A stretch of DNA of 13,715 bases from a virus (IMGVR_UViG_3300029094_000007), one strand, 5' to 3'; positions 5,659-13,715 are shown, counted from the first letter of the stretch. Notes: generated by a model from the letters alone, not told the origin. Translations and numbers: made by a program.

Positions 5659-7045
5659 TGATTTCCATCAGCATTACACTCTGATTTTTTAATTCATCGA
5701 TCACTTCCTCTGGACGGGAATCCTGATCGATAAATTTCAACGCCTGCAACACCCGAACCGCATCAATCTGACGTATATCACCGCCCTGACGCAATGACTG
5801 AACAGCCAGCGCGGAGGATGAGTCAAACACCTGGGCAGATACATCCAGTTCAGTGCGCACATCCACATTGCCACCGCAACTCTCTCCGCTCCATTCCGCC
5901 ATTATCTGGAGAATATTATCGAGGGCATCTTCGAGGGAGTTCGCCATTGTATAAAGCGGCGAGTGTTCCTGCATCCGCTCTTCATTAGTCTGATCAACAG
6001 ATTTGGTGGATGTATTTTCAGCCCGCAGAAGTTTAGCGCCGGCATGACGCATCTGATTTTCCAGCTTCTCAAGTGATGTTTCGCCAGATTCTATCGCTGC
6101 GCCACTATGTTCAACATATTCGAGGCCATTTTTTGTTCTGTCCTCAAAAATCGTAGCGGTGGATGCACCAACCGTCAGTTCTTCATTCCTGTCCAGCCCG
6201 TAGGCCACCAGCAATGGAACGCGGGCAACATGAAGAATATTGTCCTGCTCGCTCTGGCTTTGCCAGTGCTTGATATTCAGCAAGCCAAGATTAAGCAATG
6301 GCGGTGTACCACGCATAAACCCTGTTTTCTTCGTATACAGTGTTACCAGAGGAATATCATCACGGCTGGTATTCCATGACTCATGAAGCGTCCAGACAGA
6401 TTCGCCATTAGTACCTTCGCTGTGTCGATAAATTTCAACTCGACGGGGCATAATATGGCGGATCTGCTCCACCTTCTTCTGCCCGAAATCATCACCATCA
6501 ATAATGATGACCTCTTTTATACGCAAATCAGTGAGAACAACTTTCCCTTTTTCAACTTTCGATTTCCATCCAATAACCTGGCGTGGATTCAGCATCGTAA
6601 CGTACGGGCGACCACCGGCCGCGTTTTCATCGGCTTTTGTCCGAATCTCGTTCATATCCGTTCGTGGATAGTCCACCAGCGCATGTGCCACACCATATTG
6701 AAATGCGAGACTGAAAAATTGCTGCGCCCACACATCCAGTCGGCTCCCCTCCATGTCGATATTTTCTGCATATTCCCTGATTTTTTCCGGCGTTTCCTCA
6801 CTCAATACTGTCGGCTCTGCAAATATGCGCCCAATATTTTGTTTGATGCTTTCTTCATACACAGGAAGTAGCGTAGCCACAGACAGGCGTTTTTTATAAG
6901 CGTCTTCATCTTCATTAGGCCATTTGGGGAGATAATTTTCCCCCTGCCTGCGCATTTCAAGCGTACCGCCCATCAATGCGTCGTTAATATCCCACGCTTC
7001 CAGCATATCGTTATAGTCGAGGTTGGGTGTTGATATATCAGCCAT
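5639..7045 (-). CDS. Phage portal protein (468 aa)
   Basis: Track ORF starting 3 nt after the large terminase stop. Size and position are canonical for a portal; acidic C-terminal region. Confidence 0.7.
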   Translation of the reverse strand: MADISTPNLDYNDMLEAWDINDALMGGTLEMRRQGENYLPKWPNEDEDAYKKRLSVATLLPVYEESIKQNIGRIFAEPTVLSEETPEKIREYAENIDMEGSRLDVWAQQFFSLAFQYGVAHALVDYPRTDMNEIRTKADENAAGGRPYVTMLNPRQVIGWKSKVEKGKVVLTDLRIKEVIIIDGDDFGQKKVEQIRHIMPRRVEIYRHSEGTNGESVWTLHESWNTSRDDIPLVTLYTKKTGFMRGTPPLLNLGLLNIKHWQSQSEQDNILHVARVPLLVAYGLDRNEELTVGASTATIFEDRTKNGLEYVEHSGAAIESGETSLEKLENQMRHAGAKLLRAENTSTKSVDQTNEERMQEHSPLYTMANSLEDALDNILQIMAEWSGESCGGNVDVRTELDVSAQVFDSSSALAVQSLRQGGDIRQIDAVRVLQALKFIDQDSRPEEVIDELKNQSVMLMEINDANRE

Positions 7046-7047
7046 AA

Positions 7048-8358
7048 TTAAATCCGAAGTGATGTGACTCTTCCGGTCGGTTTGACAATAGGGAATTGCT
7101 TAACGATGAAATAACCTCCGGCATCATTCGGGTGATCATTGCCAGATTTTTTATCAGGCTCCCCCTTATCATCCCAGACCTGTTGCTCCAGAGATTCGGC
7201 ATATACCGGACAACGCTTCACATTAACTTTATAGCGACGCTCACCATTGGCATTGCAGAACATTGCATTCATTGAGTTAACGCGATCTTTTACTGGCGGG
7301 TTCGAGCTGTTCACCACAACGTTAAAACCTGCCTGCTTAAGCTGGGCTATATCCGTCGTACTTGCGTTACTTGATTTTCTGGAATCTCCGGAAGCATCTG
7401 GATAAATATAAATCTCCCTCACTTTCCGGTAATCATTCCCGTCATACAGCCAGAAGCGTTCTTTAATGATGCGGATCATATCCGGCGTATCGTAAGCATT
7501 GATGATTTCAGTTACCGCACATGGAAGCCCCAAACGCAGCACATGGATGATTCCCGCCATCTTTCCAACGTTAAAATCCATCCCAATATAAATCGGCTCC
7601 CCTGGCTGCTCCACTTCTTCGCAATTATTCAGTTTCCGGTCAAACTGATGGTAAACAGTACCACTTGTCAGGTTAGTAAATTGCCCTCGAAGATAGGCTT
7701 TAATCAGCTCTGGAGGGTATGATTCAAGAAGCGAAGGAATGTAATCTGCTGGCAGGTTCTTTTCATTATCGAAAGTAGATGCCTGCACCAGACCATACAG
7801 TGAGGCCAGCTCTGTTTTTTCACGCACGGCTTTAACAAACTGCTCGTAGACAAATTTGAATCCTTCCGGCGTGGTTGTAACGTCAATACCGTTGCGAAGT
7901 CCATCAATCTTATAACGCATACGCGCAATTATCTTGCGCCACGCCGTTCTGGCTTTTTCCTTCGGCAAAATGTCCAGTTCATCCACCAGCGCATTACCAA
8001 TTTTGAAACCGACGATCGTTTGTGGCTTCTCCATCGATCTGCAGATAGTGGTTCCCCGATACTGGCGTCCGTAATAAAAGTGAACCTCTTTATTTCCCTC
8101 ATTAATTTTTACGTTCAATCCCCAGTCAGCAGCAACTTCTTCCACTGTAGGGTAAAAAATATCGCGAATTTGGGGATACGTTGGCGCAAAATATCCCTGA
8201 TTTATACCTGGATGCTCCCAAATCCCCTTGCATATGCCGCCACACCCAACCCATGTTTTGCCCGAGCCAAAACCAGCAATATAGGCTTTAAATTTATGGG
8301 GCATTGAAAGAAATCGCGCCTGAGGCACATTAAGCGTCGGAGAGATCATCTTCATCAC
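7048..8358 (-). CDS. Phage terminase large subunit (436 aa; start may be one of the nearby in-frame ATGs)
   Basis: Walker A-like motif GFGSGKT near the N-terminus and acidic nuclease-type segments (YIYPDASGDS, GMDFNVG) in the C-terminal half. Overlaps the 3' end of the small terminase candidate. Confidence 0.85.
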   Translation of the reverse strand: MMKMISPTLNVPQARFLSMPHKFKAYIAGFGSGKTWVGCGGICKGIWEHPGINQGYFAPTYPQIRDIFYPTVEEVAADWGLNVKINEGNKEVHFYYGRQYRGTTICRSMEKPQTIVGFKIGNALVDELDILPKEKARTAWRKIIARMRYKIDGLRNGIDVTTTPEGFKFVYEQFVKAVREKTELASLYGLVQASTFDNEKNLPADYIPSLLESYPPELIKAYLRGQFTNLTSGTVYHQFDRKLNNCEEVEQPGEPIYIGMDFNVGKMAGIIHVLRLGLPCAVTEIINAYDTPDMIRIIKERFWLYDGNDYRKVREIYIYPDASGDSRKSSNASTTDIAQLKQAGFNVVVNSSNPPVKDRVNSMNAMFCNANGERRYKVNVKRCPVYAESLEQQVWDDKGEPDKKSGNDHPNDAGGYFIVKQFPIVKPTGRVTSLRI

Positions 8359-9424
8359 TCCTTAATCTGGCATCAACCACATTAATATTGATCGCCACAG
8401 GCTGGGGATGTTCATTATCCTCCACCGTTTCGATCTCTTTGCGCAGCTTCTGGTTTTCTATTCTGCGCCGTTCAATTTCCAGTTCCTGTAGCCGCTTATC
8501 TGCACATAATGCCCCGCCAGCAGAAAGCAAACGCAACAATTCACGCCGGGCGGCAGCCTTATCCTCCAGCAGGATCTCAACACCGTATTTTCCGAGCTTT
8601 GACCCTGCATATAATTGCCGCGCATCCCCATCAAGCAGTGTGGTATCAGCCATATAAAGCTGTCCCGTTCCCTCACCGCAGCACTTCGGGCAATCCGGAT
8701 TGGGTATGGCGTTATCAACAAAGCCGAGGCCTCCATATTCCGGCTCGGGTTTACCATCTCTGGAGGCCTGTGCCGCAGCCTTATCGAATTCTGCAATATC
8801 ACGCCACTGGTAGAGATGATTCTCGCCCCAGCAATAACGGCAGTTAACACGGCGAAATTGTGCCAACTGATTGGGGTCGGCCTGGACAATGGCCATCAAC
8901 TGGCTCACCAGTAAATCCAGGTCTGCGGTATAGCGTTTCTGGTACTGATTGCGGAAGTAGCTGATAGCACGATAAACCCTGGCATTTCTAAGCATACGAC
9001 TGGCGTTGCTGTTAGCTGTCGCACCTTGCCCCTCATAACCGGCTAGTCGGTACGCCTCTGTCGGCTTTTTACCCTGAGCAACAAGCATCGCAAACTTAGC
9101 CTGCTGGTCAGAAATGCCGAATTCATCGGGACAGAACGAAAATTCCTCCGCGTCGCCCTCATTCAGGCCCGCATCGAATACTGGCTTTTTTTCCTGAGAT
9201 TTTTCGTTCCGCTTTTGTGCAGTCTGCGCAGATTTTTTCTGCGCACTTTTTTGCGCAGTTTTGCGCATTTCTGTCTGCGCATTTTTCGGAGTTTTTTTGA
9301 TGTAACGACGGGCTGTTGCGTAATTCAGTCCCCTTGCTTCACACCATGCCACCGGAGATATACCGGAGCGGGTGTATTCAGCAATATACTCCTGCTGCAA
9401 CGCCCCCCAGTCCGGTCTGCTCAT
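8330..9424 (-). CDS. Candidate terminase small subunit / DNA-recognition protein, unusually long (364 aa)
   Basis: N-terminal helix-turn-helix-like segment (ISPVAWCEARGLNYATARRYI) as in many small terminases. Followed by a low-complexity AQK-rich linker, a Cys cluster (CRYC ... CPKCC) and a C-terminal charged coiled-coil-like segment. Immediately upstream of, and overlapping, the large terminase gene. Confidence 0.55.
   Translation of the reverse strand: MSRPDWGALQQEYIAEYTRSGISPVAWCEARGLNYATARRYIKKTPKNAQTEMRKTAQKSAQKKSAQTAQKRNEKSQEKKPVFDAGLNEGDAEEFSFCPDEFGISDQQAKFAMLVAQGKKPTEAYRLAGYEGQGATANSNASRMLRNARVYRAISYFRNQYQKRYTADLDLLVSQLMAIVQADPNQLAQFRRVNCRYCWGENHLYQWRDIAEFDKAAAQASRDGKPEPEYGGLGFVDNAIPNPDCPKCCGEGTGQLYMADTTLLDGDARQLYAGSKLGKYGVEILLEDKAAARRELLRLLSAGGALCADKRLQELEIERRRIENQKLRKEIETVEDNEHPQPVAININVVDARLRSDEDDLSDA
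9225..9281. repeat. Five copies of palindromic hexamer TGCGCA, each followed by a T-run, inside the small terminase gene
   Basis: TGCGCA at 9225, 9240, 9252, 9262 and 9276 on the plus strand, each followed by a run of T. On the coding strand this encodes the reiterated AQK peptide. Confidence 0.6.
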
Positions 9425-9427
9425 CAG

Positions 9428-9679
9428 TTAGTCCTGATTTTTATCCACCCTGAGTAGTTCGCGCAGAGCAAAGGCATCCCCTTTTCTGGCAAGCTTAAAC
9501 AATGCCGCTCGTAACTCGGCTTCACCTTTCGCTCTGCCCTTACGGATGGCCGCATAAAAATCTGTCATTGCTTCCCGATTTTCTTTCAGTCGGTTCAGAT
9601 CAACATCCAGAACGTCAGCGATTTGTTGTGCAGTCATCCGGCACGCTGCCAGAGACTCGACTTTCGAATACGGAATCAT
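9428..9679 (-). CDS. Small DNA-binding-like protein (83 aa), possibly terminase-associated
   Basis: Track ORF packed 3 nt from both neighbours. Helix-rich basic sequence (MTAQQIADVLDVDLNRLKE...RKGRAKGEAELRAALFKLARKGD). Function inferred only from position and composition. Confidence 0.4.
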   Translation of the reverse strand: MIPYSKVESLAACRMTAQQIADVLDVDLNRLKENREAMTDFYAAIRKGRAKGEAELRAALFKLARKGDAFALRELLRVDKNQD

Positions 9680-9682
9680 TTG

Positions 9683-10564
9683 TCACCCCATTGATATGCA
9701 GGGTGTCTTCTTCCTGTATTTTTCGTGAAGGATTTTTACTGCAGCGTTGTTCCAGGTGACCTGATGGTGAATGCGTTTATGGCTGGCACCCATCAGTGAG
9801 ATTTTTACGCACGACGGCGCATACATGACGGAGTAAAAACTTTTAACGTAGGTTCCGGAATCCAGATACAGCTCGGTCATTCCGCCGCTGTTTTTCTGCG
9901 TCTGTTTCTGCCCTAACTGGACAGCACCGATCGTCATAAACAATTCACCACAGCGACCGAGATTCGTGTACGTATTCACATCCTCGTTAATGCGCCCCAT
10001 GAATGAGAACGGTCGATCAACCGAACAGATAAAGCTGTTCATTGCCTTGCGTTTCACCCACGAAGCATGGCCGCCATTGTCACCAAGAAAATCCCCGCCC
10101 TGCGACATAGCGATGGAAAGCGCGGGTATTGATTCGTAATACGCCAGCATTTCAGAAAGGATCGCATCCAGTTTCCTTATCGGGAAATAGGCCTGGTCAT
10201 AGTTGCGATCCACCCGAAACTGGAACTCGTGATAATCATCATCGAGCTGAATGAAGTATTTACACCCGACCAGTTTTGCCAGGTCGAAACAGGCATTACG
10301 GGCGTAAAAAATTGAGCGGCGGTCACCAAAATTATCGGCTTCGTCAAAACGACTGGCGATATCGGCTTTGGAAAATACCAGCACCTGTTCACCAAATTCA
10401 GCCATGTACTGATGCCGTGTCTTATCTTCATCATCAACAACGATAAAAATTTTCCCGGTATAGCCAGCACGACGCAACGTCCGGTAAGTCAGAACTTTTT
10501 CCGGTCGTCCGTGAGTCAGAATAAAGGCGCAAAAATCATCACGCATATTCCTCCTCCCCGCCAT
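9683..10564 (-). CDS. Hypothetical protein, possibly GT-A-fold glycosyltransferase-like (293 aa; alternative start at 10546)
   Basis: Track ORF. The second in-frame ATG at 10546 is preceded by GGGAGGAGG and overlaps the ParB-like gene stop (ATGCGTGA). Pattern FCAFILTHGRPE ... IFIVVDDED ... FIQLDDDYHEF resembles the beta1-TxNR, DD and DxD elements of GT2-type enzymes. This is motif-level inference only. Confidence 0.55.
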   Translation of the reverse strand: MAGRRNMRDDFCAFILTHGRPEKVLTYRTLRRAGYTGKIFIVVDDEDKTRHQYMAEFGEQVLVFSKADIASRFDEADNFGDRRSIFYARNACFDLAKLVGCKYFIQLDDDYHEFQFRVDRNYDQAYFPIRKLDAILSEMLAYYESIPALSIAMSQGGDFLGDNGGHASWVKRKAMNSFICSVDRPFSFMGRINEDVNTYTNLGRCGELFMTIGAVQLGQKQTQKNSGGMTELYLDSGTYVKSFYSVMYAPSCVKISLMGASHKRIHHQVTWNNAAVKILHEKYRKKTPCISMG

Positions 10565-11327
10565 GCATGATCTCCACCATGCGCTGCGTCATTCGGACAA
10601 ATCCATTTTCAATAGCCTGCTGATAATCAATGATCACCAGCGCCGACTCCTCGAAAAGGCACTGAATTTCAGCGGGGGCATGAGCGTAATAGTCCGCAAT
10701 TCTGCTGAAATTAAACACCGTGTGACGTTCTGCCGCACACAGGAGGAATTTCTCAATATCAGGATCAAGGGACGCCGAACGTATCCGGCTGATCAGCTCC
10801 TGAGTTTTCGTATCGTCGTACAGTTCACTGATATCCGGTTTACCGCCCGACGGCTCATAAACAGGCGTATCAATTTTCGTCGTATACGGCTCCTCCTTAT
10901 TTCCTATACCGGGCAAAACATCCGTCAACAGTTCATCAATTTCTGTCGGGCCGAAGCCTGTCAGGGAGACATCAAAATCAGCATTGATTAGGACCGACAG
11001 CTCCATCCGCAACAGATCTTCATCCCAGCCAGCATTCATCGGTAGGCGATTATCTGCCAAGCGGTACGCCTTTTTCTGCTCATCCGTCAGGCCAGACAGA
11101 ACAATGACCGGAACAGAATCCATTTTGAGCATTTCAGCCGCCATAACACGACCGTGACCCGCAATAATTTCGCCCTTTTCGTCAATCAGCACCGGATTAG
11201 TCCAGCCGAATTGCTTAATACTTTCTACCAGTTGTGCCACCTGCTCAGTACTGTGCGTCCTGGCGTTGTGCGCATACGGTGACAATTCTTGTAATGGGCG
11301 ATAGACTATCTTTAATTTCTCGCTCAT
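10539..11327 (-). CDS. ParB-like nuclease domain (ParB/Srx N-terminal fold) protein (262 aa)
   Basis: N-terminal region PLQELSPYAHNARTHSTEQVAQLVESIKQFGWTNPVLID...IIAGHGRVMAA matches the ParB/sulfiredoxin-type signature (the G-H-R segment). C-terminal half is acidic. AAGG precedes the ATG. Confidence 0.7.
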   Translation of the reverse strand: MSEKLKIVYRPLQELSPYAHNARTHSTEQVAQLVESIKQFGWTNPVLIDEKGEIIAGHGRVMAAEMLKMDSVPVIVLSGLTDEQKKAYRLADNRLPMNAGWDEDLLRMELSVLINADFDVSLTGFGPTEIDELLTDVLPGIGNKEEPYTTKIDTPVYEPSGGKPDISELYDDTKTQELISRIRSASLDPDIEKFLLCAAERHTVFNFSRIADYYAHAPAEIQCLFEESALVIIDYQQAIENGFVRMTQRMVEIMHGGEEEYA

Positions 11328-11343: not shown

Positions 11344-11379
11344 AATAAAACGCACCCCAGCAGCCAGTGCTACTGGGGG
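11344..11379 (-). terminator. Terminator-like hairpin downstream of trkG
   Basis: Minus-strand RNA: CCCCAGUAGC-ACUG-GCUGCUGGGG (about 10 bp including one G-U pair), then UGCGUUUUAUU. The U-run is 4 nt from the stem, so strength is uncertain. Confidence 0.4.
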
Positions 11380-11464
11380 CGGAGGTGTTGCTGGTAAAGT
11401 TAGGTATTGGATCAATGAGTGAGTCAATATAATATTAAACTCACAATTATAAATCAGCCATATA

Positions 11465-12922
11465 TTAGGAGCGCCAAAAAAAAACTGAAAACAATATAAT
11501 AACAGGATAAATTTCAAGGCGACCAAGAATCATAGCTATGCACATTAAATATTTTGCAATGTCATTAAGCACTCCGAATGACGATGCAGTAGCCCCAAAA
11601 CCTAATCCCATATTATTAATACATGCAGCCACTGTTGCAAATGATGTAAGAAAATCATATCCCATACCATTTAACACCAGTATAAAAAACACCGTGAAGA
11701 GAGTATAAAGAAAAAAGAAACTCCATACAGACCTCATTACACGATCTGTAACTATCTTCCCTCCTACATTTACACTCAACAACGCTCTGGGATGAGAAAG
11801 CTGATTTATCTCGTGTTTGCTTTGTTTGAAAAGTATAAGAAATCGAAGTGACTTAATTCCACCACAAGTTGAACCTATACATCCCCCAAAGAAACTTGAC
11901 AACAGCAAAAACACTATCGTGTGCGTGGGCCAGTTTGCATAATCTTGCGTAGCTAAACCATTATCAGTGAGCATGGAGCTGGCAAGAAAAAACGAATGAA
12001 TAAAACTTCCATGCAAGTCATACATACCTATATGCCAGACCTGGAAAGAGGTAACAATGACCACCACTAAGGCTATTAACAGAAAGAAACGAAGTTCAAT
12101 ATCTCTGATTAAAGGTTTTATCGTTTTTCTGCTAATAACAATATACCAAAGAGTAAAGTTGAAAGCCGATAGCAGGGAAAAAGCACCAGCCACCAGCTCA
12201 ACCAAATAGTTATTAAAATATCCGATACTCTCGCTATGAGTTGAGAAACCACCAAGCGAAACTGTGGAAATCCCGTGACAAATAGCATCAAACAAAGGCA
12301 TTCCTGCAAGTCTATAACAGACAATACAAGCAATACCTAATAAAGAATAAGTTATCCACAGTGTCCGTGACGTATCGGCCAGGCGGGGAGTGAGTTTGTC
12401 ATCCTTAAATGGCCCCGGCATTTCTGACTGATAAAGCTTTGCACCACCAATACCCAATAATGGCAATACTGCAACCGCCAGAACAATAACTCCTAAACCA
12501 CCTATAAAATTTAACTGTGACCGATAGTACAAATATGCCCGAGGTAATGAACTAACATCATCAATTACAGTTGCTCCTGTTGTTGTTATTCCAGAAACCC
12601 CTTCAAACAGAGCATCAATGAACGTTAAATTAAGTTCTGAGTCAATCCATAAAGGGAATGCACTAATAACAGAAAACAAAATCCAAAACATTACAATTAT
12701 AATAAACCCATCACGGGTACGTAATTGAATGCCAGATTTCTTAGTTGTATACCACGCTCCGCCACCAATGCAAAAAAATATAACGAAAGTTATAAAGAAA
12801 ACGAACAGGCTTTTTTCTTTATAAAACAATGCTACAACCATTGGTGGCAACATTGAAAGACTATAGAGCCAAACCAGGAACCCACACATATGAGTAACAA
12901 CTCTTACATGAGATGTATTCAT
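11465..12922 (-). CDS. trkG: Trk-system potassium uptake protein TrkG (485 aa)
   Basis: The translation (MNTSHVRVVTHMCGFLVWLYS ... ILFSVFFWRS) matches my recollection of E. coli TrkG essentially throughout. Multi-pass membrane protein. The track ORF begins at a TTG six codons upstream; the ATG at 12922 gives the expected length. The gene is visibly more AT-rich than its neighbours. Confidence 0.9.
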   Translation of the reverse strand: MNTSHVRVVTHMCGFLVWLYSLSMLPPMVVALFYKEKSLFVFFITFVIFFCIGGGAWYTTKKSGIQLRTRDGFIIIVMFWILFSVISAFPLWIDSELNLTFIDALFEGVSGITTTGATVIDDVSSLPRAYLYYRSQLNFIGGLGVIVLAVAVLPLLGIGGAKLYQSEMPGPFKDDKLTPRLADTSRTLWITYSLLGIACIVCYRLAGMPLFDAICHGISTVSLGGFSTHSESIGYFNNYLVELVAGAFSLLSAFNFTLWYIVISRKTIKPLIRDIELRFFLLIALVVVIVTSFQVWHIGMYDLHGSFIHSFFLASSMLTDNGLATQDYANWPTHTIVFLLLSSFFGGCIGSTCGGIKSLRFLILFKQSKHEINQLSHPRALLSVNVGGKIVTDRVMRSVWSFFFLYTLFTVFFILVLNGMGYDFLTSFATVAACINNMGLGFGATASSFGVLNDIAKYLMCIAMILGRLEIYPVIILFSVFFWRS

Positions 12923-12939
12923 ATCTAAATATTCTTTCA

Positions 12940-12973
12940 ATTATAACCACCTTGCTGCAATATTATGATTATA
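12940..12973 (-). promoter_or_regulatory. AT-rich putative trkG promoter region with two TATAAT hexamers
   Basis: On the minus strand, exact TATAAT hexamers lie at 12940-12945 and 12968-12973, just upstream of the trkG ATG. No convincing -35 element found, so this is tentative. Confidence 0.3.
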
Positions 12974-13059: not shown

Positions 13060-13521
13060 TTACTTTAAACACTGTTCGGTTATGTATTGCTGAGCACCTT
13101 CAAGTTGGGCCTGCATCATTACCAGTCGTTCCCGGAGGGTGAAATAATCCCGTTCAGCGGTGTCTGCCAGTCTGGGGGAGACTGCATTATCCACGCTGGA
13201 GGTGGCGGTGGCTTCACGCACTGACTGACAGACTGCTTTGATGCGCAACCGACGACGACCAGCGGCAACATCATCACGCAGAGCATCATTTTCAGCTTTC
13301 GCATCAGCTAACTCCTTCAGGTATTTTGCATCGAGTGCAGCAACATCACGCTGGCGTATCTGCATGTCAGTAATGATTGCGGTCGCCTGGTTGAGTTTTT
13401 CCGTCACATTATCGCGTTGCGCTTTGTAGGTAATGGCATTATCACGGTAATGATTAACAGCCCATGACAGGCAGACGATGATGCAGATAACCAGAGCATA
13501 AATAATCACGGCAACTCTGCT

Positions 13522-13524
<3 letters not shown>
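13060..13524 (-). CDS. Rz: Spanin inner-membrane subunit Rz (i-spanin), 154 aa from GTG at 13524
   Basis: Translation is near-identical to lambda-family Rz as I recall it (...[27 protein letters not shown]...[31 protein letters not shown]...[19 protein letters not shown]...). The track starts at a TTG at 13539; the GTG at 13524 corresponds to the lambda MSRV start and follows GGGGGA. Confidence 0.9.
13119..13304 (-). CDS. Rz1: Spanin outer-membrane lipoprotein subunit Rz1 (o-spanin), 61 aa, embedded in Rz in another frame
   Basis: [20 protein letters not shown]... carries a lipobox (VVGC) and a proline-rich segment (PPPPPAW), matching lambda Rz1 closely. Lies entirely inside Rz in a different frame. 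Confidence 0.9.

Positions 13525-13715
<191 letters not shown>

What the first reader, a model, noticed from the sequence alone, without database searches (positions are those of the whole stretch)
8330..9679. Unusual packaging-recognition pair: an 83-aa helical protein plus a long HTH/Cys-cluster/coiled-coil protein
Small terminases are usually well under 250 aa. The 364-aa candidate combines an N-terminal HTH-like segment, a Lys/Gln/Ala-rich linker, a CxxC...CxxCC cluster (possible zinc ribbon) and a C-terminal coiled-coil-like segment, and is preceded by a separate small DNA-binding-like ORF. Either could be the true small terminase, and the larger could be a fusion with an extra DNA-binding or nuclease-adaptor domain.
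Basis: partly seen in the sequence, partly recalled or inferred. Interest (0 to 1): 0.4.

Follow-up and report, generated by a model that had tools for sequence, protein, structure and literature searches.

The report
Modular small terminase with embedded pac repeats
The large gene is this prophage's small terminase, carrying a P1 PacA-like DNA-reading head next to its probable target repeats inside its own gene, while the small gene is a shortened copy of a different small-terminase family that travels with a neighbouring DNA-modification module.

Summary
Both ORFs are real: 83 aa at 9428-9679 and 364 aa at 8330-9424, minus strand, in a Rac-like E. coli prophage.

The 364-aa protein is the small terminase (TerS), and RefSeq already names it so. 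It passes Pfam Terminase_2 and matches the solved SF6 G1P structure. It belongs to a very large subfamily with four invariant cysteines.

What is new is its modularity:
- Residues 1-45 are an HTH homologous to the N-terminus of P1/D6 PacA.
- The DNA encoding the Lys/Gln/Ala linker holds five TGCGCA hexamers (9225-9281).
- Across about 85 distinct relatives, the HTH recognition helix and the hexamer change together in eight classes. This holds on unrelated TerS bodies, as in the P1 pac site.
- The C-terminal tail tracks the large-terminase type.

I infer that the array is the pac recognition site read by the N-terminal HTH.

The 83-aa protein is a C-terminally truncated homologue of a second TerS family (phrog_309). 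It was absent upstream of 68 of 80 relatives of the large TerS. It occurred only where a ParB-like gene lay upstream, so it is probably not an obligate packaging partner.

Nothing was tested experimentally.

The parts
9428..9679 (-). 83-aa gene ('p83'). It is a C-terminally truncated homologue of phrog_309-type small terminases: an HTH plus two helices.
   Evidence: ORF. phrog_309 E 8.3e-23, profile positions 145-218 of 319. hhalign against full-length phrog_309 TerS gives Prob 98.7, E 4.7e-16, with p83 residues 4-77 matching residues 13-86 of 129. AF2 pLDDT 92.6. No Pfam or NCBIfam hit.
8330..9424 (-). 364-aa small terminase (TerS), Terminase_2 family, Zn-ribbon subfamily with an N-terminal extension.
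   Evidence: Pfam PF03592, 35.8 bits against a cutoff of 26.1. phrog_51 E 2e-76. The profile hits SF6 G1P 3zqp at E 1e-16. RefSeq product 'terminase small subunit', WP_079403893.1.
9290..9424 (-). Codons 1-45: the PacA-type N-terminal HTH. The recognition helix is NYATARRYIKK, residues 34-44.
   Evidence: AF2 helices 24-31 and 35-41. hhalign against D6 PacA gives Prob 98.1, E 9e-14, and against P1 PacA Prob 91.8, E 7.5e-7. The same domain is found in Stx-phage TerS.
9216..9281 (.). Array of five palindromic TGCGCA hexamers (9225, 9240, 9252, 9262, 9276) plus a degenerate TGCACA (9216), alternating with A-tracts. This is the predicted pac recognition site. It lies in the DNA that encodes the Lys/Gln/Ala linker.
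   Evidence: It is the only hexamer cluster of at least 4 copies per 100 nt in the whole window. The count exceeds a synonymous-codon null, P=0.018. Hexamer positions are conserved while spacers vary among 20 alleles: 2/18 against 36/56 variable sites, P=9e-5. Hexamer identity co-varies with the recognition helix. The position is equivalent to the P1 pac hexamers.
8930..9124 (-). Codons about 101-165: the Terminase_2 (SF6 G1P-like) HTH DNA-binding domain.
   Evidence: Motif FGISDQQAKFAMLVAQGKKPTEAYRLAGY. Alignment to 3zqp residues 20-101 and to Pam5 TerS. AF2 pLDDT 94-97.
8645..8857 (-). Codons about 190-260: an insertion carrying the C4 cluster (C195, C198, C245, C248), a predicted zinc ribbon.
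   Evidence: The four Cys are invariant in 63 diverse homologues, within conserved CRxCxG...YQW and GGxGF...PNPDCPxCxGEG motifs. Relative to SF6 G1P the region is an insertion between residues about 101 and 117. AF2 pLDDT 97-98 with beta strands.
8333..8560 (-). Codons 289-364: a long C-terminal helix (289-335) and a TerL-specific tail (PQPVAININVVDARLRSDEDDLSDA).
   Evidence: AF2. The tail is shared by TerS proteins paired with the same TerL type, including a phrog_370 TerS. It is replaced in L082, which has another TerL.
7048..8349 (-). Large terminase (context). Its start overlaps the end of the TerS gene.
   Evidence: Pfam Terminase_6N E 3.7e-33 and Terminase_6C E 3e-11. Annotation.
9683..11327 (-). 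ParB/Srx-domain gene (10539-11327) and TAGT/GREB1-like glycosyltransferase gene (9683-10546). This is the module with which p83 co-occurs.
   Evidence: Pfam ParB_N E 8.8e-7 and TAGT E 4e-35. Co-occurrence.

Best explanation
This is the DNA-recognition end of a headful (pac-type) packaging module of a Rac-like lambdoid prophage.

(1) The 364-aa protein is the working small terminase (about 0.9). It is a mosaic of five parts:
- a PacA-type N-terminal HTH (residues 1-45);
- a basic linker;
- an SF6 G1P-like Terminase_2 HTH and oligomerisation core;
- an inserted four-cysteine, probably zinc-binding, module;
- a C-terminal helix and tail that docks its particular large terminase.

(2) The N-terminal HTH supplies sequence specificity by reading the five TGCGCA hexamers at window 9225-9281. 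These lie about 10-70 bp downstream of the HTH's own coding sequence, in the DNA that encodes the linker (about 0.75).

(3) By homology and position relative to P1 PacA and pac, this array is the pac site where packaging series start. The HTH and its array are inherited and exchanged as one specificity cassette (about 0.6). The Terminase_2 ring would then provide the generic DNA wrapping and TerL activation.

(4) The 83-aa protein is not the small terminase and is not an obligate partner. It is a stable truncated derivative of a second TerS family (phrog_309). It kept the DNA-binding HTH and first helices but lost the C-terminal part. It travels with the upstream ParB-like and DNA-modification genes. 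I think it most likely acts as a DNA-binding accessory of that module on DNA about to be packaged (about 0.4).

Shown here: homologies, architecture, repeats, co-variation and co-occurrence. Inferred: DNA binding, pac function, zinc binding and the role of the 83-aa protein.
For: TerS identity:
- Pfam Terminase_2 above the gathering score.
- Profile match to SF6 G1P, Pam5, PaP3 and NV1 small terminases.
- Gene overlap with TerL.
- Family members, including F116 and Bcep22, sit at the TerS position.
- The C-terminal tail follows the TerL type.

Cys cluster: four Cys invariant in 63 sequences.

N-HTH homology: PacA of D6 and P1.

Array in this window:
- It is unique in the window.
- It exceeds a synonymous-codon null in 17 of 20 lineages.
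- Copies occur in different reading frames.
- Hexamers are conserved while spacers vary.

Co-variation:
- The table of recognition-helix class against hexamer is essentially diagonal: xARRYIK with TGCGCA; xAKRYIK with TGCGAA; VSDTA[IV]RK with GCGAAC; ISE[GA]AIRK with GCGTAC; IT[ILV]KALRYMA with GGGCAA; IAK[TS]TLID with CGACC; ISHTAINQ with TGGAAA. 933W INYNTARTRIK with YGATCAT is an eighth class.
- The same helix/hexamer pairs occur on unrelated TerS bodies: L007 phrog_370, RothD and PSTCR3.
- L103 and L105 have 93% identical bodies but only 31% identical HTHs, and different hexamers.
- In P1, TGATCA hexamers start at pacA nt 194 and flank the annotated cleavage sites at nt 276-285.

p83:
- hhalign Prob 98.7 to full-length phrog_309 TerS, which sit directly before Terminase_6 TerL.
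- Present in only 12 of 80 relatives of the N-extended TerS, and exactly where ParB is upstream.
- Among 80 ParB-like loci, 47 have a p83-HMM hit downstream.
- Its sequence does not follow the hexamer class.
Against: - There is no experimental or read-based evidence for packaging initiation at the array.
- The window has one hexamer cluster, not two clusters flanking a cleavage site as in P1. No IHF site was looked for.
- Two N-extended relatives (L101, L102) show no obvious array. L017 only reaches P=0.07.
- Many of the ~85 sequences are related, so the co-variation rests on a limited number of independent swaps.
- The array could be an operator for autoregulation rather than pac.
- p83 is translationally coupled to the TerS gene in most lineages, with a 3-nt gap or an ATGA overlap. 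That argues for some packaging-linked role.
- In L012 p83 occurs without a ParB gene within 6 kb.
- Structure searches for both models gave no significant PDB match.
Confidence: 0.6

Rival explanations
1. The 83-aa and 364-aa proteins form an obligate two-component pac-recognition complex. This is the first reader's 'pair', in which the small protein contributes specificity or bending.
For: - The genes are adjacent and translationally coupled.
- Both carry terminase-type HTHs.
- p83 abuts a TerS gene in most of the Enterobacterales loci that carry it. In a few (L016, L150-type, L188) other DNA intervenes.
Against: - 68 of 80 relatives of the N-extended TerS have no p83 within 1.5 kb upstream.
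- p83's variable helix does not follow the hexamer class, whereas the TerS N-HTH does.
- p83 co-occurs strictly with ParB-like genes.
- p83 also precedes a different TerS family (phrog_370, L007).
Confidence: 0.15
2. The TGCGCA array is not a pac site. Either it is a by-product of a repetitive low-complexity peptide (xAQK repeats), or it is an operator through which TerS regulates its own or late-gene expression.
For: - Four of the five copies are in one frame and encode Ala-Gln.
- In 933W the repeats have an exact 12-bp, four-codon period.
- No cleavage data exist.
Against: - A synonymous-codon null is exceeded in 17 of 20 lineages.
- Copies fall in two or three frames and both orientations in many lineages.
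- Hexamers are conserved while spacers and encoded residues vary.
- Homology and positional equivalence to the experimentally defined P1 pac hexamers in pacA.
- The pure by-product reading does not explain co-variation with a recognition helix 30 codons upstream.
Confidence: 0.2
3. The 83-aa protein is the real small terminase. The 364-aa protein is then an accessory DNA-binding protein or a non-packaging protein.
For: - p83 matches a PHROG annotated as small terminase.
- Its 129-aa homologue in Pasteurella phage Pmp13 is the only TerS candidate before TerL there.
Against: - p83 lacks the C-terminal ~40 residues of its family.
- p83 is separated from TerL by the 364-aa gene.
- The 364-aa protein passes Terminase_2, matches solved TerS structures, and its tail tracks the TerL type.
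Confidence: 0.03
4. The 83-aa ORF is a functionless relic left by a recombination that replaced a phrog_309 terminase module with the Terminase_2 module.
For: It is a truncated form of a family that is otherwise full length and adjacent to TerL.
Against: - It keeps a stable length of 81-93 aa in Escherichia, Citrobacter, Serratia, Yersinia, Pantoea, Erwinia and Klebsiella down to about 45% identity, with 18 invariant residues.
- It keeps an intact start and is coupled to the downstream gene.
Confidence: 0.1

Closest known systems
Bacteriophage P1 pacase subunit PacA and the P1 pac site
   Same: - The N-terminal HTH is homologous: hhalign Prob 91.8 for P1 and 98.1 for D6. The recognition helix is nearly identical, NTARRYL against ATARRYI.
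- Hexamer repeats lie inside the terminase gene just downstream of the HTH-coding part. P1 has TGATCA at pacA nt 194-233, and this window has TGCGCA at nt 144-200.
- In P1 the hexamers flank the annotated cleavage sites.
   Different: - Only the first ~45 residues are related. The rest of PacA shows no similarity.
- The hexamer here is TGCGCA, with no GATC. Dam-methylation control as described for P1 (from my own knowledge) cannot apply in the same form.
- There is one cluster here rather than two flanking clusters.
- The partner large terminase is Terminase_6 type, not PacB.
Terminase_2 small terminases: Bacillus phages SF6/SPP1 G1P (PDB 3zqp, 3zqq, 2cmp)
   Same: - Pfam membership.
- An HTH DNA-binding domain plus the first oligomerisation helix, and a later segment, align at E 1e-16.
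- The gene lies directly before TerL.
- The phage type is pac/headful.
   Different: - It carries an extra ~100-residue N-terminal module (PacA-type HTH plus linker).
- It carries a ~95-residue insertion with four invariant Cys between the two aligned segments.
- At 364 aa it is more than twice the length of the 164-residue solved SF6 chain 3zqp.
phrog_309 small terminases, e.g. Pasteurella phage Pmp13 gp50 and many uncultivated phages
   Same: The 83-aa protein aligns over residues 4-77 at about 35% identity, Prob 98.7. It shares the upstream ParB-like plus DNA-modification gene context.
   Different: The 83-aa protein lacks the C-terminal ~40 residues. It is not adjacent to TerL, and a Terminase_2 TerS intervenes.
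Herpesvirus small terminase (pUL28/pUL56) zinc fingers
   Same: It is a terminase DNA-recognition subunit with Cys-based metal sites. A 2022 review mentions zinc only for herpesviral TerS (PMC9611059).
   Different: No sequence relationship was tested or claimed. This is an analogy only.

Membership tests
Terminase_2 small terminase (PF03592; SF6/SPP1 G1P type), for the 364-aa protein | Scores above the curated Pfam gathering threshold | tested here: met
   35.8 bits against 26.1, residues 122-316 on profile positions 19-129. phrog_51 E 2.3e-76 over the full length.
Terminase_2 small terminase (PF03592; SF6/SPP1 G1P type), for the 364-aa protein | N-terminal-type HTH DNA-binding domain homologous to solved members | tested here: met
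   The family profile hits 3zqp (E 1e-16), Pam5 TerS (4e-13), 4zc3, 2cmp, NV1 and PaP3.
Terminase_2 small terminase (PF03592; SF6/SPP1 G1P type), for the 364-aa protein | Gene immediately upstream of, or overlapping, the large terminase gene | tested here: met
   20-nt overlap with the Terminase_6N/6C gene. The same position holds in relatives.
Terminase_2 small terminase (PF03592; SF6/SPP1 G1P type), for the 364-aa protein | Ring oligomer; stimulates TerL; needed for pac cleavage | not testable with these tools
   Only a monomer model was made. No multimer prediction or experiment was possible.
P1 PacA-type pac recognition, for the N-terminal module and hexamer array | N-terminal HTH homologous to PacA | tested here: met
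   hhalign Prob 98.1 (D6) and 91.8 (P1). tblastn alone was weak, E 0.1.
P1 PacA-type pac recognition, for the N-terminal module and hexamer array | Multiple hexamer repeats inside the terminase gene, downstream of the HTH-coding part | tested here: met
   Five TGCGCA at gene nt 144-200. P1 has TGATCA at nt 194-233 and TGATCR at nt 324-380.
P1 PacA-type pac recognition, for the N-terminal module and hexamer array | Two hexamer clusters flanking the cleavage site, with an IHF site between | tested here: inconclusive
   There is only one cluster in this window. Some relatives have two sub-clusters. No cleavage data exist, and IHF sites were not searched.
P1 PacA-type pac recognition, for the N-terminal module and hexamer array | GATC (Dam) sites within the hexamers | tested here: not met
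   TGCGCA contains no GATC. The 933W relative does have YGATCAT.
P1 PacA-type pac recognition, for the N-terminal module and hexamer array | Homology to PacA beyond the HTH | tested here: not met
   BLASTP of the full proteins finds only the recognition-helix segment, E 0.08.
phrog_309 small terminase, for the 83-aa protein | Significant profile match | tested here: met
   E 8.3e-23. hhalign Prob 98.7, E 4.7e-16.
phrog_309 small terminase, for the 83-aa protein | Full-length architecture including the C-terminal segment | tested here: not met
   It covers profile positions 145-218, whereas full-length members reach about 265-284. It lacks the residues after position 86 of the 129-aa Pmp13 protein.
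phrog_309 small terminase, for the 83-aa protein | Gene directly upstream of the large terminase | tested here: not met
   The 364-aa gene lies between. Full-length members abut Terminase_6 TerL.
Zinc ribbon / C4 metal site, for residues 195-248 | Four conserved Cys in two CxxC pairs | tested here: met
   C195, C198, C245 and C248 are invariant in 63 sequences and in a second set of 18.
Zinc ribbon / C4 metal site, for residues 195-248 | Actual metal binding and ribbon geometry | not testable with these tools
   AF2 gives high confidence for the region. Model coordinates were not inspected and no metal is modelled.

The most novel reading that the evidence does not exclude
The conserved block 'ParB-like protein + DNA-modifying enzyme (TAGT glycosyltransferase, Mom-like enzyme or N6/N4 methylase) + phrog_309-type TerS or its truncated 83-aa form' may be a packaging-coupled DNA-modification system. 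In this reading the terminase-derived HTH protein brings the ParB-like protein and the modifying enzyme onto pac-proximal or concatemeric phage DNA. Modification state and packaging initiation would then be linked, in the way Dam methylation of the hexamers gates pac cleavage in P1.
Probability: 0.12. Interest if true: 0.8.

Novelty: new variant of a known kind. Interest (0 to 1): 0.55.

Why it matters
How small terminases recognise pac sites is a long-standing open problem. A 2022 review notes that specific TerS-pac binding has been weak or undetectable in vitro for P22, Sf6, SF6 and SPP1 (PMC9611059).

This TerS class has a separate, simple HTH whose recognition helix changes in step with a short repeated DNA word next to it. 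That gives explicit, testable protein-DNA pairs. One pair may turn on a single residue: helices with ARRY go with TGCGCA and helices with AKRY go with TGCGAA.

It also predicts pac sites for a prophage family present in roughly 15-30% of complete E. coli genomes, and for Stx phages such as 933W. That bears on lateral and generalised transduction.

The invariant four-cysteine module in over a thousand TerS clusters is not mentioned in the review I read.

The linkage of a terminase-derived HTH protein to ParB-like and DNA-modification genes was not found described in my two literature searches that bear on it.

Tried and rejected
- **Sequence searches for the 83-aa protein.** Single-sequence PDB searches were uninformative. 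Pfam and NCBIfam gave nothing.
- **Genome-collection scan.** The first viral scan returned only near-identical E. coli loci, so I re-queried with distant first sequences.
- **Alternative readers of the hexamers.** I tested whether p83 or the Terminase_2 HTH co-varies with the hexamers. Neither does.
- **A second repeat array.** I looked for one in the window that could be a p83 or ParB site. None exists.
- **Promoter and terminator scan.** Promoter-like sites were no more frequent than in shuffled sequence. Terminator-like sites were more frequent (10 against a mean of 3.4), but four of them are plus-strand matches inside the array, which I take to be by-products of palindromic hexamers next to T-runs.
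- **RppC.** A weak hit of the phrog_309 profile to RppC (6hlk, E 0.31) is not significant and was not pursued.
- **Literature.** Searches found no paper describing a zinc-ribbon phage TerS or this cassette. The library is incomplete.
Full report
**Setting.** The window is the late region of a Rac-like lambdoid prophage of E. coli. All genes are on the minus strand. The order is Rz/Rz1, trkG, a ParB/Srx-domain gene (10539-11327), a TAGT/GREB1-like glycosyltransferase (9683-10546), the 83-aa ORF (9428-9679), the 364-aa ORF (8330-9424), a Terminase_6N/6C large terminase (7048-8349), a DUF4055 portal, a Mu-F-like head protein, a scaffold and the major capsid protein. The 3.4-kb stretch around the finding matches 1611 of 5426 complete E. 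coli genomes, 831 of them over at least 80% of its length. It also matches ten induced E. coli phage records.

**Observation.** Both ORFs exist exactly as described. The genes are tightly packed. There are 3-nt gaps before and after the 83-aa gene, and the 364-aa gene overlaps the large-terminase gene by 20 nt.

**The 364-aa protein is the small terminase.**
- It passes the Pfam Terminase_2 gathering score and matches phrog_51 end to end. RefSeq already calls it 'terminase small subunit'.
- A profile of 63 diverse homologues hits the solved SF6 G1P small terminase at E 1e-16. It also hits Pam5, NV1 and PaP3 small terminases.
- An exhaustive search found at least 1258 50%-identity clusters at E<=1e-10. 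Most are 235-260 aa and align to residues ~104-300.
- Named members include the transducing phage F116, Bcep22, BcepB1A and PEp14, all annotated TerS. Short members sit directly before TerL.
- So the protein is long only because it has an extra ~100 N-terminal residues. The Cys cluster is a family trait, not a peculiarity of this protein.
- C195, C198, C245 and C248 are invariant; C249 is not. Relative to SF6 G1P the Cys-bearing region is a ~95-residue insertion between the two aligned segments.
- The TerS review I read mentions zinc only for herpesviral TerS (PMC9611059). Zinc binding here is inferred, not shown.

**The C-terminal tail.** The last ~25 residues (PQPVAININVVDAR...) are shared by TerS proteins paired with the same TerL type. 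One of these belongs to a different TerS family (L007, phrog_370, TerL 90% identical). The tail is replaced in L082. That TerS is otherwise 85-86% identical overall (near-identical up to residue ~296), but its TerL is unrelated. This fits the established rule that TerS C-termini bind TerL, as stated for lambda and P22 in PMC9611059.

**The N-terminal module and the repeats.** Reading the DNA, I saw that the Lys/Gln/Ala linker is encoded by five copies of the palindrome TGCGCA, at window 9225, 9240, 9252, 9262 and 9276. A degenerate TGCACA lies at 9216. The copies are 10-15 bp apart and alternate with A-tracts, and one copy is in a different reading frame.
- It is the only hexamer cluster of at least 4 copies per 100 nt in the 13.7-kb window.
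- The same gene position (nt ~130-250) in orthologues carries 4-9 copies of a lineage-specific hexamer, often as direct copies followed by inverted ones, and in two or three frames.
- A null that keeps the protein sequence and resamples synonymous codons is exceeded at P<=0.018 in 17 of 20 lineages. L017 reaches 0.07, and L101 and L102 have no array.
- Among 20 distinct alleles in the same register, 2 of 18 hexamer positions vary against 36 of 56 spacer positions (P=9e-5). This count excludes the two hexamers used to fix the register.

**Co-variation.** The hexamer follows the recognition helix of the N-terminal HTH (residues 34-44; AF2 helix 35-41):

| Recognition helix | Hexamer |
|---|---|
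| [NK]Y[AST][ST]ARRYIK | TGCGCA |
| S[ST]AKRYIK | TGCGAA(T) |
| VSDTA[IV]RK | (T)GCGAAC |
| ISE[GA]AIRK | GCGTAC |
| IT[ILV]KALRYMA | GGGCAA |
| IAK[TS]TLID | CGACC |
| ISHTAINQ | TGGAAA |
| 933W INYNTARTRIK | YGATCAT |

- The table over 85 distinct segments is essentially diagonal.
- The pairing is independent of the rest of the protein. L103 and L105 have bodies 93% identical but HTHs 31% identical and different hexamers. The window and L105 have bodies 40% identical but HTHs 69% identical and the same hexamer.
- The AKRY/TGCGAA pair occurs on three different bodies: a Zn-TerS, RothD, and a Terminase_2 without Zn in PSTCR3. The CGACC pair occurs on both phrog_51 and phrog_370 bodies.
- Neither the Terminase_2 HTH nor the 83-aa protein follows the hexamer.
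- I conclude that the N-terminal HTH reads the repeats. I also conclude that the HTH and its array form a cassette exchanged as a unit. This is inference from co-variation, and many of the sequences are related.

**Link to P1.**
- The N-terminal HTH is homologous to the N-terminus of PacA: hhalign Prob 98.1 for D6 and 91.8 for P1. The rest of PacA is unrelated.
- In the annotated P1 genome, TGATCA hexamers lie at pacA nt 194, 201, 213 and 228, and TGATCR at nt 324-380. They flank the annotated pac cleavage sites at nt 276-285 and an IHF site.
- The window's array is therefore the positional equivalent of an experimentally defined pac element. From my own knowledge, Sternberg and Coulby, and Skorupski and colleagues, showed that the P1 hexamers are required for pac cleavage and are controlled by Dam methylation.
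- Differences here: one cluster rather than two, no GATC, and a different terminase body and TerL. I rate 'this array is the pac site' at about 0.6.

**The 83-aa protein.**
- It has no Pfam or NCBIfam match, but it matches phrog_309 'terminase small subunit'.
- Full-length phrog_309 proteins of 107-150 aa sit directly before Terminase_6 large terminases in Pasteurella phage Pmp13 and in many uncultivated phages.
- A profile comparison gives Prob 98.7, with p83 residues 4-77 matching residues 13-86 of 129. p83 therefore lacks the C-terminal ~40 residues.
- The family is conserved across Enterobacterales at a stable 81-93 aa, with 18 invariant residues. It is therefore probably functional.
- It is not tied to the large TerS. 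Only 12 of 80 relatives of the N-extended TerS have it within 1.5 kb upstream. Those 12 are the only loci with any upstream ParB-like gene: it is visible in the 7 where p83 abuts the TerS gene, and would lie beyond the 1.5-kb flank in the other 5.
- Starting instead from 80 diverse ParB-like genes, 47 have a p83-HMM hit downstream. Twenty are short p83 followed by a Zn-TerS; L188 and L199-L201 are among them. In the other 27 no Zn-TerS was detected. All but one of those 27 are 107-211 aa; the exception is an 84-aa p83 in L220. The 14 I inspected are 107-150 aa, each followed wherever the fetched DNA extends far enough by a 400-510-aa ORF. The six scanned against PHROGs matched phrog_309. Three of four downstream ORFs tested were Terminase_6; the fourth (L257) was not.
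- Between ParB and the TerS-like gene lies a Mom-like enzyme, an N6/N4 methylase (sometimes fused to ParB) or, here, the TAGT glycosyltransferase.
- Against a pure ParB association: p83 is translationally coupled to the TerS gene in most lineages. In Serratia it is separated from ParB-MTase by an opposite-strand gene. In L012 there is no ParB within 6 kb.
- My best reading, at about 0.4, is a DNA-binding accessory linked to the ParB/modification module acting on DNA to be packaged. An obligate TerS partner is less likely (0.15), a relic less so (0.1), and 'the true TerS' is essentially excluded.

**Verdict.** The large protein is an already-annotated small terminase, so the basic call is ordinary.

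The anatomy behind it is more interesting than the finding suggested. It comprises a PacA-type specificity cassette with its own target repeats, a family-wide four-cysteine module, a TerL-matching tail, and a truncated second-family TerS tied to ParB-like DNA-modification genes. Taken together this is a new variant of known kinds. It offers a directly testable handle on pac recognition. All functional statements remain computational inferences.

Noticed in passing
window 9683-11327 (minus strand): A ParB/Srx-domain protein plus a TET-associated-type glycosyltransferase (TAGT, 'GREB1-related') lie just upstream, with no TET/JBP gene in the window. In related phages the same slot holds a Mom-like enzyme or an N6/N4 methylase, sometimes fused to ParB. 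This looks like an exchangeable late-expressed DNA-modification module next to the terminase genes.
   Followed up: partly
L268:3141-3183 (phage 933W, TerS gene nt 141-183): The Stx phage 933W small terminase has the same PacA-type N-terminal HTH. It is followed by four YGATCAT repeats at an exact 12-bp period, encoding IDHE/IDHK/TDHE/IDHD. These contain Dam sites like the P1 pac hexamers and are a candidate packaging site for Stx phages.
   Followed up: partly
window 9216-9281, compared with loci L019-L098: E. coli alleles differ in the number of intact hexamers, from 4 to 6. Some have TGTGCA or TGCGCG in place of one copy. Others have TGCGCA where this window has TGCACA.
   Followed up: partly
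window 11465-12940: The trkG potassium-transporter gene is inserted between the lysis genes and the ParB-like gene. Its GC content is clearly lower (0.33-0.41) than the surrounding ~0.47-0.50. It is absent from several otherwise similar loci (L082-L097).
   Followed up: no
window 11355-11378 and 11426-11453 (minus strand): A GC-rich hairpin followed by a T-run (terminator-like) lies between trkG and the ParB-like gene. A weak promoter-like site lies at the 3' end of the trkG ORF. Both are consensus matches only.
   Followed up: no
L009:5250-6098: In one Yersinia contig the 82-aa homologue is followed by a ~390-nt gap. After the gap is a 153-aa ORF matching only the C-terminal half of phrog_370 TerS, with a different TerL and portal. 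This is a mosaic junction or a damaged TerS gene.
   Followed up: no
L001:1933-3161 and 6641-8046 (E. coli TUM9803): In the genome whose 3.4-kb region is 100% identical to the window, the prophage has an IS3 insertion among the head-tail genes and a portal gene annotated as frameshifted. The window's portal ORF is intact (468 aa).
   Followed up: no
window 13060-13539 and 13119-13304: An Rz-like spanin ORF has a Cys- and Pro-rich ORF (61 aa) embedded in another frame, the usual Rz/Rz1 arrangement.
   Followed up: no
alignment A5 (phrog_309 TerS) against PDB 6hlk: There is a weak, non-significant hit (E 0.31) of the phrog_309 TerS profile to RppC. RppC is the satellite protein that binds a helper phage's TerS to redirect packaging. 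This is a lead only.
   Followed up: no
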